Positions 55,401 through 64,000 of a DNA stretch of 64,000 nucleotides are shown piece by piece. Numbering within the stretch: the stretch's first letter is position 1; every line of letters begins with the position of its first letter. The position numbers are program-made. This DNA is from Escherichia coli (lineage in GTDB: Bacteria; Pseudomonadota; Gammaproteobacteria; Enterobacterales; Enterobacteriaceae): assembly GCF_016026235.1 (NCBI RefSeq), contig NZ_CP065613.1; one strand, written 5' to 3'.

Positions 55401-58400
55401 CCGATCGACATTCATCATGGCCCGTATGAGTGATTAACGTTCATCCCACTCATCAGCTGCTGCGCGTCCTTCCTCGGTATCCAGCGGTGGCTCAAGCTGA
55501 AATTCCCCCTCGTCCCATTCATGTAATGTATTCTCTTCCTGCCACTCCTGGCGTATCTCTATCTCATCATAGTCGCCATCAAAAACACTTTGCGCGGCTT
55601 CACCGCTAAGCATAGGTAAACATTCACCTTCTTCCCCTTCGTCGGCAAAAAACTCAACTTGCCACATGATGTCGCCGTCCTGCAAAACGTATTTTTGGGC
55701 ATTGAACTGTTGCACATTCGCATCTTCGGCGTCGATGCCGGGGTTGTCTGCAAGAAATTCTTCGCGTGCAGCGTCAATGGCTTCTTCAAGCGTTGCGTAC
55801 ATGGTCATCACGATTCTCCCTTTGAGTTGATGAGGTTTCAGGGAAAAGGATAGCTGATTCTCCGCTTTTGCAAGTATGAAAGGCGAAAAATCAGTTCGAT
55901 ACCTGGGGTATTCGACGACGACGTAGACTGTTCCATGAATAGACTGCGTTGAATAACACTACGCCAGCGGTGACGAGAAATACCGCTCTGAAACCGTAGT
56001 TCGCTGAAATCGCTGCTCCCATCAATGGTCCGGTAACGTTGCCAATATCACGAAACGATTGGTTATAGCTGAAGATACGCCCGGCGATCTGGTTGCTCGA
56101 GTTGTAAACCAACAGTGTCTGTACGGCGGGGAGTAGTGCACCATCGGCGGCACCGAGCAAAAAACGTAAAATCCCAAGTTGCAATGGCGTCTGAACGTAA
56201 GACATTGGGATCAACAGCAGTACAGAAAAGATCAGCGCTGTAATCAGGATCTTTTCGGGTCCGATTCGATCGCCAAGTTTGCCGAGTCGTGGTGCGCTTA
56301 GCAGAGCCGCCACGCCTGGCACCGAGGCGATCATGCCACTGATAAAGGCGACGTTACTGACGTTACCCGCCAGTTCGCGGACATACAGCGTCAGAATGGG
56401 GGCAATTGAGCCTGTCGCCACCTGGATGATTAACGTGGTGACAAACAGGCTGAGTACCAGTTTCGGGTTTTTAAGTGATGTCACCACTTCCCGCATGTGC
56501 AGCATCTCTTTTTTGCTGACCGGCTGGAATTTTTCTCTGATGCAGAACAGGGTGACGAAAAAGCAGAGTATGAGCACACTGGCGGTAATAAAGAATACCG
56601 GACGTAAGCCGTAGCTATCGGCGAGCAGGCCGCCAGCCATTGGGCCGAGCAACGCACCACTAACGCCGCCTGTGGAGAGCGTACCCAGCGCCCAGCCGCT
56701 TTTATTACGCGGTACTTGTGTGGCGATAAGAGCATTAGCGTTGGGGACAAATCCGCCAAGTAACCCAAGAAGCGCCCGTAGGATCAAAAACTGCCAGATA
56801 TTTTGTGCCAGTCCCATCAACACCATCACGATGCCCATGCCGAGAGCAGAGCGTAATAGCATGAGTTTTCGGCCTTTACGGTCGGCGAGTCCACCCCAAA
56901 ACGGTGAGGCGATGGCCGAAAATAAAAATGTAATGCTGATATTTGTTCCCTAAATACACTATGAGAACATACCTGTTAATTACAGGACAATATCAGGTGA
57001 ATGACCATGCAATTTAATAGTAGATTTCCAAGTATCTAAGCAGTTTTACACAGATTCTATGCAGTATCTTACAATCCCCTACACCACCTCTAAATAACAT
57101 AACTTATTGAAATATATAGAGAATCTGTAAAGCCTCTTTTCAGGGAACTATGCAGGGTGTTAGTCGTCCCTCTCCAGACACTACATATAGTGCTATATAC
57201 AGGGCCATATAACGATATATAGATGCTTGGTCACGTGGTGTAACTATCAAGAAACTTAACGATTTCCTGCGTGAAAGTTAGAAGTGATGGCTATAGTTAC
57301 CCTCCTGAATCTTCATAGTTGATTCGGTTAGTTGGGCTTGTTATGAAGATGCTTCATCCGAATCATCTACCAACCCCTAATCAACCTCATGCGCTCTATT
57401 AACCAGTCTCATAAGGAAGTCCTTTTGAGACACTTTCAACGTAACGGTAGAATGCACCCTCAAGTAGTCTCAAAAGGTTGTTTTTGGATTATGAGACTAA
57501 CTTTTGAGACTTCTAAGGGGAACATTATGGCGATACTTGGATATTGCAGGGTGAGTACAGATGACCAATCCATCACTAACCAGCAAATGCAAATTGAAGA
57601 GGCAGGGTACAACATTGCTAAATGGTTCACTGATGAAGCTGTCAGTGGTTCTGTCAAAGCTTCTTTAAGAAACGGTTTCAGTAGTTTGTTAGCTTATGCA
57701 CGAGAAGGTGACACCGTAGTTGTGGTAGCTGTAGACCGTCTTGGACGTGACACAATTGATGTGTTATCAACGGTTAAAGCGCTACAGGCTAAAGGTGTGA
57801 CAGTTATCAGCCTTAGAGAAGGGTTTGACTTATCAAGCGCTATGGGTGAAGCAATGTTAGGCATTATGTCAACGTTGGCACAGCTTGAAAGAAGCTTGAT
57901 AGCAGAGCGTAGAAAGGCTGGTATTGAACGTGCTAAAGCTGAAGGGGTACATATGGGAAGACCTGTAAAAGCTTCTTCAGAGGCTGTACAGATGCTTATT
58001 TCACAAGGTAAAACGAGGTTGCAGATTCAGGAAGAGCTAGGAATCTCTAGAGCAACTTATTACAGACTTGCTAAATAAGTTATTAAACAGTTACATGGAT
58101 GTGACTGATATTTGGCTTTTTTGCAAAGGGGGTGCTATATCGAGAATGTACCGTACCAAGCAGCTACAGACATCTGTTAGATATTTTCGAAGATTTTTAG
58201 AAGGGGAATTTGAAGAGGGGCTACTACGATTTTATAAAAATTTTCAGATTCTGAAAAGTTACTGTACAGAATACATACAGACATCTTTAAAGTATCTATA
58301 AAGACTTTTAAGATAAAAGATAGATATCCCAGAAAGGATATCCGTTTAGAAAGCCTGTTAAGTATCTCTTAAAAGAGAGTAAACCTTGTCAATAGTGATT

Positions 58401-61400: not shown

Positions 61401-64000
61401 CCCTTCACACACCAGCAATTAAAATCCCGCTTCTCCAGATGGAAGAATGCACCAGCAGATACTGGTGATTTTGAGATTACCCATACATTTGATTACGCAT
61501 CAGAAGATGACCTTCGCAATGCAATTAAGCTGATTGAAGACTTCAATACCTCAGAAGATGTGGATGGTGACAAATATAAATCCCGTGGTAACCGCTATAA
61601 CCGTGATGATATCACTCAGGCCATAAATGCTGGTCAATCTCAGCGATACATCACAGAAAAATATGGTATTTCACGGAGACAGTATTTCTACGTTAAATCA
61701 TTGATTAATAAGGACAATTCAAAATAACCATCTAAGTAACGGTAGAATGCACTTTACAGGCAGAGTTGCACCTTAATTTGATAAATTACCTTACCAGCCA
61801 GTGCAACTCCCTCTGTAACCCGCATGGTTACTGGCCTCAGAATGGCTATTTTAAGAGGTCTGAGATGTGTTTTATAGGAAATTTAAAAATGAGCAATTAC
61901 GAATTACAGATTTTTGTTGATAACGACACCGTGACCATGCTTCAACACTTCACTGATGTAGGTATCGCAATTAATTTTGATAAATTACTAAAGCTGATGG
62001 CTGATAATGCAGAAAACATCTCTGACTTTATTCAGTCGGTGGAGTTTAACGAGCCCCGAATGATGCTACCAATTACAGACAGCAGTATGAAGCGTCTTAT
62101 TATTGAGGAAACTAACCGATACAGCGTTAGCCCTGAAAAATATCTCAAGGCGGCTGTAACAATTTTGTACGCTGACAGTATTCTGGTGACGGATTCTGTG
62201 AGGGTTCACTAATGGGTTTAATAATTGCTTGGACGTTGCTTGGCTTATTTGTTGGTTGCTGGGTGGGTAATACGGTAAATAAAAATTGATATTACCAATC
62301 TGTTAAAAAGCTGTTGACAAATAACCTTAAGCATGGCATAATTTTAATTATGGGAGAGCAATTCTCTCTTATTTCTTTCAACAATTCCATCTACGTCTAG
62401 GGATAGTTATTCTGAAAGGTGCAATGCTTTTCGTCATGGCTTATTTAGCCCGCACTAAATAGGCCATATCAAAAATCTTTGTTCATTCATTGAATCCTTT
62501 AGATGTTTTTAATTTCTTCACCTTATGAATAGCCCTTTATAAGAAATTATCTAGGGCTATTCAGTTTTTAAAAAGCATACTTGGCAAACGCTTTTAAGTC
62601 TCTTCTAAGTTTTTTGTATGGCTGTCAAGTATGCTTTTTAAAAACTGAAATACTTTAGCTTAGAAGAGGAAAAAACAATGACAAACGATTTATATTTTAA
62701 CGGTCGAAAGATTGATAGCTTCGGTGACTGGTCACCACAGACTGAACATCCGCTACATATTATTCAGCGTCAAGAGCATGACAAGCGTATTGAGCTTGAG
62801 CAAGAAATCCGAAGGTCACCAAAGGTAATTTCCTTTGTGTCCCCTGAGCCTCAAGAGATGCCTGATGTATGCAAAACTGAATCATTATTTAATCTTGAGC
62901 GTGAATATTACCCACTGCTAAAAGCACAGCGTATTAAACTAGATGATGCTTACGATGCTGTTAAGAACTTCGAAGAAACCTCGAAACCTTCAGAATATGA
63001 TATTGCTTACGAGATTAAGTCAAACCCGTTTATCTATTATGAAGGAAACTTTAATGATGGTTTTGGTACAGCGATTGAAGACGTTCCTAAAGTTCTTCAA
63101 AGTATCCCTGAAGGGTTCCGGTTAATTGATGTCAGACAAGCATTAAGGGGTTCTGGTCAATTTATTCTGATGACTGGTAAAACAGATGAAGAGATTCTTC
63201 AGTTAGCTGAAGCTAATTTGACTAAGCATTATTCCGGTAAACTGGATAAGTTAAAGCAAAAGCTTAAAAAAGAACTTGATAGCATGAAAGAACTTGTTAG
63301 TGAATATGAATCACAGAAGAAGATTGCTATGCAGGCTGATATTGAGCAGCTTACGAAGATTTCTCAGAAATATAGCAAAGCACTTTAATTATGAGGTGGT
63401 GAATGATTGATTTAACAGAACGCTATGAGCTTATTAAAGCAATTAGCGAACGATTGAAAGAACAACCCAACAAACCAAAACGAATCAAATCATCCACCTC
63501 CTCTAAGCAAAATAACAGAATCAGAAGAATCGCTAAATGGTGTCTTGATAAATTACCAAGTGATTGTCAGATTGTCGGTGAAGATGGTAATTATTATCTG
63601 GTTAGGTAAAAATTGGTTGGGTAGAAAATCTACGGGAGAGATTATCGATATTATTCGGTAGTTTCTCCCTTTTTTGTATGTGCACTACGTGAAATCTGTA
63701 AAGCTAATATCTACACTGAAAAATAGAATTTACGTACAACACGCTTAAACAAAGGTATGAGGTGAAAAAATATGAATGAGCAAATTCACAGTTGATAGTT
63801 TTATCGTTGAACTGGGCTTCAATGAGAACGTTATTAAAGGTCTGCAAAAAGTTGAAAAGGCAGCTTTGCAGTCAGCACAAAAAATTGAACGGAATTTGAA
63901 TAGAGCGTTTAAGGTCGATACCAAGCAACTTGACAGCAATTTAACGGCTTCTTTAAAGTCAATGGAGGGGAAGATTAATAAAACTTTTGACCGTCTGGAA

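What the first reader, a model, noticed from the sequence alone, without database searches (positions are those of the whole stretch)
57406..61752. Exact 17-bp motif GTAACGGTAGAATGCAC present twice, the first copy at the centre of a ~100-bp palindrome upstream of the resolvase
Seen in sequence: the 17-mer occurs at 57441-57457 and 61736-61752 in direct orientation, each upstream of a gene start (recombinase ATG 57527; small ORF ATG 61889). Around the first copy the flanks form nested inverted repeats symmetric about the motif (57421-57431 vs 57467-57477; 57406-57416 vs 57489-57510). The second copy is followed by its own inverted repeats (gagttgcac at 61762-61770 vs gtgcaactc at 61800-61808). 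Established knowledge: resolvase res sites lie immediately upstream of the resolvase gene and consist of inverted-repeat subsites. Inference: either a pair of recombination sites that would let the 4.3-kb segment between them be excised or resolved, or a shared operator/promoter (possible -35 TTGAGA and -10 TAGAAT in copy 1) controlling two operons.
Basis: partly seen in the sequence, partly recalled or inferred. Interest (0 to 1): 0.6.

Follow-up and report, generated by a model that had tools for sequence, protein, structure and literature searches.

The report
Resolvase res site plus duplicated promoter core
The palindrome is a Tn3-like resolution (res) site holding the resolvase gene's promoter, and the second 17-mer is an isolated copy of that promoter's -10 region, so the two copies are not a recombination pair.

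Summary
GTAACGGTAGAATGCAC occurs exactly twice, far beyond chance. Both copies lie in a low-GC integrative island that starts near 56950, inside mdtG, and runs off the window.

Copy 1 sits in the 33-bp spacer between two dyad sites built from a half-site, AGTCTCAWAAGG. That half-site occurs only here, in the window and in complete relatives. The layout is a 28-bp site, a 33-bp site, then direct half-sites next to the gene. It matches Tn3/gamma-delta res, and the 183-aa recombinase is closest to gamma-delta resolvase. The 17-mer carries the -10 (TAGAAT) of a TTGAGA-17-TAGAAT promoter whose -35 lies inside site I, so autoregulation is likely.

Copy 2 has no recombinase half-sites and no good -35. 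It occurs only in one of three swappable middle modules. Of 5,426 complete E. coli genomes, 180 carry the copy-1 context and 52 the copy-2 context. Elements with only copy 1, or only copy 2, keep the same gene order. No genome shows a deletion or circle junction at the 17-mers.

The "excisable 4.3-kb segment" reading is therefore rejected. A shared core promoter, identical by descent, is the best reading; a shared operator is not excluded. The finding itself is ordinary. The island, which carries Felix O1-like phage tail genes, is more interesting.

The parts
57441..57457 (+). 17-mer copy 1: the last 7 nt of the promoter spacer, the -10 hexamer TAGAAT (57448-57453) and 4 nt of discriminator, lying in the spacer between res subsites I and II
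   Evidence: Invariant in 44 of 45 related sequences, although the recombinase gene is only about 73% identical. The core ACGGTAGAATGCACC is kept in a Klebsiella element, and AACGGAAGAATGCACC in another Enterobacterales element, L112.
61736..61752 (+). 17-mer copy 2: begins 8 nt after the stop codon of the 142-aa ORF and lies 153 nt upstream of the 107-aa ORF. It has -10 TAGAAT at 61743-61748 but no good -35.
   Evidence: Present only in elements with the window-type ('type A') middle module. Found in 52 of 5,426 E. coli genomes, against 180 for the copy-1 context.
57405..57432 (.). res subsite I (putative crossover site): 28 bp = AGTCTCATAAGG + AAGT + CCTTTTGAGACA, with central dinucleotide AG at 57418-57419
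   Evidence: Conserved in all relatives. The central dinucleotide is AG in some and its reverse complement CT in others, on several different arm backgrounds.
57425..57453 (+). Predicted sigma-70 promoter of the resolvase gene: -35 TTGAGA (inside the right half of subsite I), 17-nt spacer, -10 TAGAAT
   Evidence: 10 of 12 consensus positions. The same -35/spacer/-10 arrangement is kept in the Klebsiella element L107 and in L112.
57466..57498 (.). res subsite II: 33 bp = AGTCTCAAAAGG + 9 bp + GATTATGAGACT
57487..57511 (+). Remnant of res subsite III: two direct half-sites 13 bp apart (25 bp in all). In this window a 17-bp deletion has fused the left half of site III with the right half of site II. 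Relatives have a 5-bp gap and then ACTTATGAGACT-A-ACTTTTGAGACT.
   Evidence: Alignment A1. All 35 metagenome copy-1 contexts carry the undeleted form.
57527..58078 (+). Small serine recombinase (183 aa) of the resolvase/invertase family
   Evidence: PHROG 'DNA invertase', E = 2.5e-57. Best solved relatives are gamma-delta resolvase (5.9e-31) and Tn3 resolvase (5.5e-28), ahead of Gin invertase (8e-22). Homologues carry PF00239 and PF02796. The 3' end that encodes the HTH (57910-58069) is as conserved as res (0.92-0.99), while the catalytic part diverges.
61756..61816 (+). Imperfect inverted repeat/hairpin just downstream of copy 2: 9-bp arms GAGTTGCAC (61763-61771) and GTGCAACTC (61801-61809) with a 29-nt gap, plus an outer ACAG/CTGT pair
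   Evidence: The type B module has different arms (GAGTGAGAC/GTCTCACTC) with the same 29-nt gap. The predicted RNA fold is no more stable than shuffles (z = -0.47).
61299..61727 (+). 142-aa ORF ending 8 nt before copy 2. It has a weak C-terminal HTH-like segment and is the last gene of the swappable middle module.
   Evidence: HTH_28, E = 0.25 only; 57% identical to the type B counterpart
61889..62212 (+). 107-aa ORF, first gene of the conserved right-hand module, downstream of copy 2
   Evidence: No family match.

Best explanation
The window carries an integrative island, about 11-13 kb in relatives, inserted in mdtG. Its left end holds a Tn3/gamma-delta-type resolution module.

The res site is about 107 bp here and about 124 bp in undeleted relatives. 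It is built from the half-site AGTCTCAWAAGG in this order: subsite I (28 bp dyad, presumed crossover site), a 33-bp spacer, subsite II (33 bp dyad), and gene-proximal direct half-sites (subsite III). The 183-aa resolvase gene follows immediately.

The resolvase promoter is embedded in res. Its -35 (TTGAGA) is part of the right half of subsite I. Its -10 (TAGAAT) lies in the I-II spacer and is the core of 17-mer copy 1. Bound resolvase would therefore both synapse res sites and repress its own transcription, as in Tn3. Synapsis would presumably resolve multimers of the replicating excised element.

Copy 2 is a second instance of the same 17-nt -10/discriminator block. It sits at the boundary between one variant ('type A') of the swappable replication/regulation module and the conserved right-hand operon. 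It most likely arose by duplication or recombination from the E. coli-type copy 1, because it shares even the GTA bases that are not conserved across genera. It serves, at most, as an independent, -35-less (weak or activator-dependent) promoter for the 107-aa ORF. The two copies do not recombine with each other and do not need each other.

Shown: the sequence, its conservation, the site geometry, the independence of the two copies, and the absence of junctions. Inferred: binding of the half-sites by the resolvase, promoter activity, autoregulation, multimer resolution, and the origin of copy 2.
For: - Half-sites occur only upstream of the recombinase: 5 in the window against about 1 expected. 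The same holds in complete islands L001 and L002.
- Site geometry is 28 bp (12+4+12) and 33 bp (12+9+12), with site centres 63.5 bp apart (about 6 helical turns). In relatives there is then a 5-bp gap and a 25-bp site of two direct half-sites next to the gene.
- The recombinase is most similar to the gamma-delta and Tn3 resolvases.
- res and the HTH-coding 3' end of the gene are co-conserved (0.92-0.99) while the catalytic part diverges.
- The same res architecture lies upstream of 61-67% identical resolvases in Klebsiella, Enterobacter, Cronobacter/Serratia, Raoultella-type and Yersinia elements.
- The promoter TTGAGA-17-TAGAAT matches 10 of 12 consensus positions and is kept in L107 and L112.
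- In Tn3, res contains the promoters and resolvase autoregulates; site III is proximal to tnpR (PMC7157771).
- Copy 2 has no half-sites.
- The copy-1 context is in 180 genomes and the copy-2 context in 52.
- Twelve loci have copy 1 only, with at least 7 kb downstream; L012 and L013 have copy 2 only.
- No deletion or circle junction appears in 5,426 genomes.
- Elements from other genera have a single copy.
- The type B module has an extended -10-like TGTGAGAAT at the equivalent place.
Against: - Copy 2 lacks a usable -35 (CAAAAT at 17 nt; TTCAAA at 19 nt), and the promoter scan did not call it.
- The identity covers 7 spacer bases that sigma-70 does not read.
- Across genera the block AACGGnAGAATGCACC is conserved even where the first base of the -10 changes from T to A (L112). 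This hints at a constraint beyond the -10 hexamer, for example a bound factor or leader RNA pairing.
- The window's own res has lost one half-site through a 17-bp deletion, so it may not be resolution-proficient.
- Subsite III is a direct repeat, not an inverted one, and subsite II is 33 bp rather than 34 bp, so the match to Tn3 res is not exact.
- There are no transcription-start, binding or recombination data.
Confidence: 0.55

Rival explanations
1. Shared operator. The 15-17-nt block is the binding site of one trans-acting regulator, encoded by the element, the host or an infecting phage. This regulator would overlap the -10 at both places and couple resolvase expression to expression of the right-hand operon in type A elements.
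For: - The exact 17-nt identity includes bases that sigma-70 does not read.
- AACGGnAGAATGCACC is conserved across genera at a fixed distance from subsite II, even where the -10 changes to AAGAAT.
- Copy 2 lacks a -35, as activator-dependent promoters do.
Against: - The motif is not palindromic or repeated.
- Copy 1 does not co-vary with the middle module, so any regulator is not encoded there.
- Most elements have only one copy.
- Three other lineages (L110, L111, L113) have the same res but no such motif.
- The motif is not enriched in a Felix O1-like phage genome.
- No DNA-binding family was detected for the neighbouring small ORFs.
Confidence: 0.2
2. Copy 2 is a functionless relic. A short piece of the res spacer was carried to the module boundary by illegitimate or short-homology recombination. 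It persists only because the type A module is young (94-99% identical among carriers).
For: - All copy-2 contexts are 94-99.5% identical, so their invariance says nothing about selection.
- There is no -35.
- Other module types manage without it.
- Copy 2 shares the lineage-specific GTA of the E. coli copy 1.
Against: - Its position, in an intergenic region 153 nt upstream of the first gene of an operon, with a consensus-like -10, is where a promoter is expected.
- The predicted start (about 61755-61756) falls at the foot of the downstream hairpin.
Confidence: 0.2
3. Recombination pair. The two direct 17-mers are crossover sites, for the resolvase or for homologous recombination, that delete or circularise the 4.3-kb segment carrying the resolvase, Dam and Rep genes.
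For: The repeats are direct and exact and flank a replication module, and a serine recombinase is encoded next to copy 1.
Against: - Copy 2 has none of the recombinase half-sites, and the 17-mer lies between subsites rather than at a dyad centre.
- None of 5,426 genomes has a place covering at least 80% of the synthetic deletion or circle junction.
- The boundaries of the swappable module (58282 and 61806/61882) do not coincide with the 17-mers.
- Single-copy variants are common.
Confidence: 0.03

Closest known systems
Tn3 / gamma-delta res-TnpR cointegrate resolution system
   Same: - A 183-aa small serine recombinase whose best solved relatives are the gamma-delta and Tn3 resolvases.
- res lies immediately upstream of the gene, with the accessory end proximal to it.
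- There are three dimer-sized subsites. Site I is 28 bp. The I/III length difference of 3 bp and the 5-bp II-III gap match Tn3. The Tn3 figures 28/34/25 and 22/5 are from my own knowledge; they are consistent with the 114-bp total (PMC2602789) and with the spacer differences in PMC9943657.
- The half-site GTCTCAWAA resembles the gamma-delta consensus TGTCYNNTA (from memory).
- The promoter is embedded in res, which implies autoregulation (PMC7157771).
   Different: - There is no Tn3-family transposase or terminal inverted repeats. The module sits in an island that integrates through a large serine recombinase.
- The I-II spacer is 33 bp rather than 22 bp, one extra helical turn, and this is where the 17-mer lies.
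- Site II is 33 bp rather than 34 bp.
- Site III is made of direct repeats.
- The central dinucleotide is AG/CT, not the palindromic AT.
Sin (resH) and beta recombinase (six) resolution sites
   Same: An accessory site made of direct-repeat half-sites, and a long spacer between the crossover site and the accessory site (PMC9943657, notes the direct repeat in Sin site II).
   Different: - Those systems have two subsites and need HU/IHF-type bending proteins in the spacer (my own knowledge).
- Here there are three subsites.
- I saw no IHF or Fis consensus in the spacer by inspection.
- Similarity to Sin is much weaker (1e-13 to 1e-6).
Hin/Gin/Pin DNA invertases
   Same: Small serine recombinase; the PHROG and some source annotations call it a 'DNA invertase'.
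   Different: - Complete islands hold only one cluster of binding sites. There is no second inverted crossover site and no invertible segment.
- Similarity to Gin is weaker than to the resolvases.
Plasmid and phage multimer-resolution modules (e.g. RK2 ParA/res, F ResD/rfsF)
   Same: A resolvase plus an adjacent autoregulated site on a replicon that replicates as a circle. The island encodes an O-like initiator with iterons.
   Different: Here the module is on a chromosomally integrated, satellite-like island. The resolution function itself is inferred, not tested.

Membership tests
Tn3-type res/resolvase module | Small serine recombinase with an N-terminal resolvase catalytic domain and a C-terminal HTH | tested here: met
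   183 aa. phrog_125 at 2.5e-57. Gamma-delta resolvase at 5.9e-31 over residues 1-181. Homologues carry PF00239 plus PF02796.
Tn3-type res/resolvase module | res immediately upstream of the resolvase gene, with accessory subsite III proximal to the gene and crossover subsite I distal | tested here: met
   The cluster at 57405-57511 ends 15 nt before the ATG at 57527. The best dyad (28 bp) is distal to the gene. The Tn3 orientation is described in PMC7157771.
Tn3-type res/resolvase module | Three dimer-binding subsites of inverted 12-bp half-sites with lengths 28/34/25 bp | tested here: inconclusive
   The lengths found are 28, 33 and 25 bp (the last in relatives). Subsite III is a direct repeat, and this window has a 17-bp deletion that fuses sites II and III.
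Tn3-type res/resolvase module | Promoter(s) inside res, repressed by resolvase binding | tested here: inconclusive
   A consensus-like promoter with its -35 inside subsite I and its -10 in the I-II spacer was found and is conserved. Repression cannot be tested here.
Tn3-type res/resolvase module | Strand exchange at the central dinucleotide of subsite I between two directly repeated res sites | not testable with these tools
   The only indirect hint is that the central dinucleotide is AG in some elements and CT in others, on several arm backgrounds.
Tn3-family transposon | Tn3-family DDE transposase (tnpA) and 38-bp terminal inverted repeats | tested here: not met
   No such gene is present in the complete islands L001, L002, L008, L009 or L011. 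The ends are att sites of a large serine recombinase.
Hin/Gin-type inversion system | Two crossover sites in inverted orientation flanking an invertible segment | tested here: not met
   All half-sites lie in one cluster of about 105-120 bp, in the window and in complete islands.
Pair of site-specific recombination sites (the two 17-mers) | Recombinase-binding half-sites at both partners, and recombinant junctions in nature | tested here: not met
   There are no half-sites at copy 2. None of 5,426 genomes has a deletion or circle junction. Single-copy variants are common.
Sigma-70 promoter | -35 and -10 hexamers with a 16-18-nt spacer | tested here: met
   Copy 1: TTGAGA-17-TAGAAT, 10 of 12 consensus positions. 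Copy 2 meets only the -10; its -35 matches 1-3 of 6 at 17-18 nt, and the scan did not call it.

The most novel reading that the evidence does not exclude
The conserved block AACGGnAGAATGCACC is not merely a -10 box. It would be the recognition site of a dedicated factor, perhaps supplied by an infecting Felix O1-like phage or by the island. That factor would switch on the resolvase and, in type A elements, the operon leading to the phage-derived tape-measure and tail genes. The 17-mer would then be the infection-sensing control element of an undescribed PLE-like satellite or anti-phage island of E. coli.
Probability: 0.08. Interest if true: 0.6.

Novelty: new member of a known kind. Interest (0 to 1): 0.25.

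Why it matters
For the finding itself, little changes. It documents a Tn3-style res site with an embedded promoter, re-used as the left-end module of a family of small integrative islands across Enterobacterales. It also shows that a striking exact repeat can be a duplicated promoter core rather than a recombination substrate.

The work gives an annotated res site (subsites, half-site consensus, polymorphic central dinucleotide) that could be tested directly.

The wider context is more valuable. The island carries homologues of two adjacent tail genes of virulent Felix O1-like phages, plus short copies of their intergenic sequences, and I found no paper describing it. If it is a satellite of, or a defence against, these phages, the promoters mapped here are the obvious handles for studying how it is induced.

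Tried and rejected
- **Excision or deletion between the 17-mers.** Synthetic deletion and circle junction queries found no spanning match in 5,426 complete E. coli genomes.
- **A second recombinase site elsewhere in the island (inversion system).** None was found in complete islands.
- **A helper-phage-type promoter.** The motif and its sub-motifs are not enriched in Escherichia phage pinkbiff, a Felixounavirus.
- **A known RNA family.** Nothing near either copy; all Rfam matches in the island score far below gathering thresholds.
- **A structured leader RNA after copy 2.** The fold is no better than shuffles (z = -0.47); the type B equivalent gives z = -2.1.
- **A second copy of the motif in related elements of other genera.** None was found.
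- **Wider homology between the two regions.** Only 20 of 22 nt align.
- **The motif being common elsewhere.** Of 94 matches in 92 metagenome contigs, 35 are the copy-1 context, 8 are the copy-2 context, and 51 are unrelated contexts. By my rough estimate the unrelated ones are about what chance predicts for a collection of that size; half of them match only the G8A variant. Of three viral-contig hits, two are the island and one is unrelated coding sequence.
- **IHF, Fis or sigma-54 consensus in the spacer.** No convincing match, by inspection only.
- **Family searches of the 96-, 142- and 107-aa ORFs for RHH/HTH regulators.** Pfam gave nothing significant and PHROGs/NCBIfam gave no match.
- **Relatives of the resolvase in reference genomes and viral contigs by peptide patterns.** Only 2 loci were found in each collection.

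
Full report
**1. Observation.**
The 17-mer GTAACGGTAGAATGCAC is present at 57441-57457 and 61736-61752 on the + strand. 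No other match exists in the 64-kb window, even with three mismatches allowed. It is one of eight exact direct repeats of at least 17 nt in the window; 20 shuffles produced none. The others include iterons in a rep gene and chromosomal repeats. It is the longest long-range repeat within the island. Local alignment extends the similarity only to 20 of 22 nt.

The stated gene starts are correct. The inverted repeats around copy 1 are real.

**2. Context.**
Positions 1 to about 56950 are E. coli chromosome (csg, mdoGH, yceK, msyB and a truncated mdtG). From about 56950 a low-GC island begins and runs off the window. Related islands are present in several hundred of 5,426 complete E. coli genomes, at several attachment sites: mdtG, yciI/tonB, ymdF/wrbA and a DUF72 gene.

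Complete relatives have this gene order:
- small serine recombinase;
- a middle module: Dam-like methyltransferase, an O-like replication initiator with iterons inside its gene, and small ORFs;
- a conserved right module: a 107-aa ORF, a 236-aa ORF annotated 'transposase', a tape-measure-like protein and a 256-aa phage protein;
- a large serine recombinase on the opposite strand at the far end.

The elements are mosaic. The left module (to 58282) and the right module (from 61806 or 61882) are shared. The middle module comes in at least three unrelated types.

**3. The palindrome is a res-like site.**
The 9-mer TTWTGAGAC occurs five times in the window, all between 57406 and 57510, against about one expected. 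In the complete islands L001 and L002 it is likewise confined to this one cluster.

With 12-bp half-sites (AGTCTCAWAAGG), the cluster parses as follows:
- Subsite I, 57405-57432, is 28 bp (12+4+12).
- A 33-bp spacer follows.
- Subsite II, 57466-57498, is 33 bp (12+9+12).
- In relatives, a 5-bp gap and two direct half-sites totalling 25 bp (12+1+12) come next, ending 15 nt before the ATG.

The centres of sites I and II are 63.5 bp apart, about six helical turns.

Tn3/gamma-delta res is 114 bp with three dimer sites (PMC2602789). Site III is proximal to tnpR and crossover occurs in site I (PMC7157771). [quoted passage not shown] My recollection of 28/34/25 bp sites with 22- and 5-bp gaps fits those statements.

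Compared with Tn3, the present site has:
- the same site I length, the same I-III length difference and the same II-III gap;
- one extra helical turn between sites I and II;
- a site II that is 1 bp shorter;
- a direct-repeat site III, a feature otherwise known from Sin site II.

The recombinase is 183 aa. Its best solved relatives are gamma-delta resolvase (5.9e-31) and Tn3 resolvase (5.5e-28), ahead of Gin invertase (8e-22).

Along the left module, the two most conserved blocks are res (0.92-0.99 per-column identity) and the 3' end of the gene that encodes the HTH domain (0.92-0.99). The catalytic part is only 0.70-0.92. This pattern is what one expects if the HTH domain reads these half-sites, but that is an inference.

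The same architecture precedes 61-67% identical resolvases in small integrative elements of Klebsiella, Enterobacter, Cronobacter/Serratia, a Raoultella-type lineage and Yersinia.

**4. What the 17-mer is at copy 1.**
It lies in the I-II spacer. It contains the -10 hexamer TAGAAT (57448-57453) of a predicted promoter whose -35 TTGAGA (57425-57430) is part of the right half of subsite I. The spacer is 17 nt and the match is 10 of 12 consensus positions.

The block is invariant in 9 of 10 aligned relatives; one has G8A. It is also invariant in all 35 metagenome copy-1 contexts.

In the Klebsiella element the spacer has diverged, but ACGGTAGAATGCACC is intact at the same distance from site II. 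In L112 it reads AACGGAAGAATGCACC. Three other lineages carry different -10-like boxes in the spacer.

A promoter embedded in res and repressed by resolvase is the established Tn3 arrangement (PMC7157771). That is the model I adopt.

If transcription starts near 57456-57460, the leader can fold into a stable hairpin (-26.4 kcal/mol, z = -3.8) that pairs the region just after the 17-mer with the Shine-Dalgarno sequence. This may add constraint on the GCACC bases. I did not pursue it.

**5. What the 17-mer is at copy 2.**
Copy 2 begins 8 nt after the stop codon of the 142-aa ORF and lies 153 nt upstream of the 107-aa ORF. It has no recombinase half-sites nearby. It has no acceptable -35: CAAAAT at 17 nt, TTCAAA at 19 nt. 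The promoter scan did not list it.

It exists only in the type A middle module. Type B elements have, at the equivalent place, an extended -10-like TGTGAGAAT and a different 9-bp inverted repeat with the same 29-nt gap. Type C elements have neither.

All copy-2 contexts are 94-99.5% identical to one another, so their invariance is uninformative.

Copy 2 shares with the E. coli copy 1 the first three bases (GTA), which are not conserved across genera. This points to identity by descent rather than convergence.

**6. The two copies are independent.**
- Among complete E. coli genomes, the copy-1 context is in 180 and the copy-2 context in 52.
- Twelve fetched loci with at least 7 kb downstream have copy 1 but no copy 2.
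- L012 and L013 have copy 2 in otherwise complete islands that lack res, resolvase and copy 1.
- Synthetic deletion and circle junctions across the 17-mers find no spanning match in any genome.
- The boundaries of the swappable module do not coincide with the 17-mers.
- Elements in other genera have one copy only.

**7. Alternatives.**
A shared operator is not excluded. The cross-genus conservation of bases flanking the -10, including a lineage where the -10 itself changes, is more than sigma-70 needs. However:
- the motif is asymmetric;
- it does not co-vary with the middle module;
- it is absent from three lineages with the same res;
- it is not enriched in a Felix O1-like phage genome;
- no neighbouring ORF matches a DNA-binding family.

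Copy 2 may also be a functionless relic. I rate promoter core by descent at 0.55, operator at 0.2, relic at 0.2 and recombination pair at 0.03.

**8. Comparison and novelty.**
The left-end module works like, and largely meets the criteria of, a Tn3-type res/resolvase module. It is not part of a Tn3-family transposon: there is no tnpA, and the island has large-serine-recombinase ends. It is not an invertase system, because there is only a single site cluster.

I file it as a new member of a known kind. The duplicated 17-mer is a minor peculiarity of one module variant.

**9. Beyond the finding.**
The island's tape-measure-like protein aligns end to end with the tape measure of Escherichia phage pinkbiff (Felixounavirus). 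Overall identity is 26%, with nearly identical termini. The next island protein is 74% identical to the phage gene that follows the tape measure.

Two short non-coding island segments, 58229-58262 and 58300-58362, are conserved in all island types. They are 87-88% identical to intergenic sequences of that phage.

I found no paper describing such an island. This deserves its own follow-up.

Noticed in passing
window 63776-64000 (gene runs off the window); L002:18845-21911: The island encodes a tape-measure-like protein. It is 26% identical end to end to the tape measure of Felixounavirus phage pinkbiff, with near-identical N- and C-termini. The next gene is 74% identical to the phage gene just downstream of the tape measure. 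This suggests a satellite of, or tail-assembly interference with, virulent Felix O1-like phages. No describing paper was found.
   Followed up: partly
window 58229-58262 and 58300-58362: Two non-coding segments upstream of the Dam-like gene are 87-88% identical to intergenic sequences of phage pinkbiff (43051-43084 and 34841-34901; the latter is a hairpin in a divergent intergenic region). They are among the most conserved parts of all island types. They may be phage regulatory signals copied by the island.
   Followed up: partly
window 57498/57499: This window's res has a 17-bp deletion (AGCTAAACTTATGAGAC) between two direct TTATGAGAC half-sites. The deletion removes one half-site and fuses subsites II and III. 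All 9 aligned relatives and all 35 metagenome contexts have the undeleted form.
   Followed up: partly
window 57418-57419: The central dinucleotide of the 28-bp subsite I is AG here and in some relatives, but its reverse complement CT in most others. Each form occurs on several different arm backgrounds. This is the behaviour expected of an asymmetric crossover core in an otherwise palindromic site.
   Followed up: partly
window 61763-61809; L008 about 17829-17875: The 9-bp inverted repeat after copy 2 (GAGTTGCAC/GTGCAACTC) is replaced in type B modules by GAGTGAGAC/GTCTCACTC with the same 29-nt gap. The upstream 142/128-aa protein (57% identical) differs in its putative C-terminal helix-turn-helix. 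This could be a cognate protein-site pair or a conserved hairpin.
   Followed up: partly
window 62314-62372: The best sigma-70-like promoter of the island (TTGACA-17-CATAAT with TG, 11 of 12) is followed within a few bases by a terminator-like hairpin (62350-62372). It lies between the 107-aa ORF and the 236-aa ORF and could be an attenuation or antitermination control point.
   Followed up: no
window 62560-62583 and 62626-62649: A perfect 24-bp inverted repeat (TTCAGTTTTTAAAAAGCATACTTG and its complement) lies just upstream of the 236-aa ORF that RefSeq calls 'transposase'. That ORF has no family match in PHROGs, NCBIfam or PADLOC.
   Followed up: no
window 59809-59890: Iteron-like direct repeats (TTACTCAGTCAGTCAA twice, ACCCACTGAGTCAAAAT(T) twice) lie inside the gene for the O-like replication initiator, as in the lambda ori.
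   Followed up: no
L036 (metagenome contig SKEF01003551.1): The ends of this 10.6-kb contig overlap by about 145 bp, with one mismatch. It carries copy 2 upstream of copy 1, a 5'-truncated large serine recombinase gene, and 13 nt of host DUF72 sequence at the join. It looks like a circular or tandem derivative of the island formed by illegitimate recombination, or an assembly artefact.
   Followed up: partly
window 57456-57520: If transcribed, the resolvase leader folds into a stable hairpin (-26.4 kcal/mol, z = -3.8) built from the site II and site III half-sites. It pairs CCCU just after the 17-mer with the Shine-Dalgarno AAGGGG, which could give translational control.
   Followed up: no
window 61777-61790, 61976-61988, 63545-63557: The 12-mer TTGATAAATTAC occurs three times in the island: in the loop of the hairpin after copy 2, inside the 107-aa ORF, and inside the 68-aa ORF.
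   Followed up: no
window 56950-57400: About 450 bp of conserved (0.8-0.9) non-coding DNA lie between the island's left junction in mdtG and res. This window also has an extra insertion of about 85 bp (57306-57390). Parts of that insertion occur, sometimes inverted, next to other islands.
   Followed up: no
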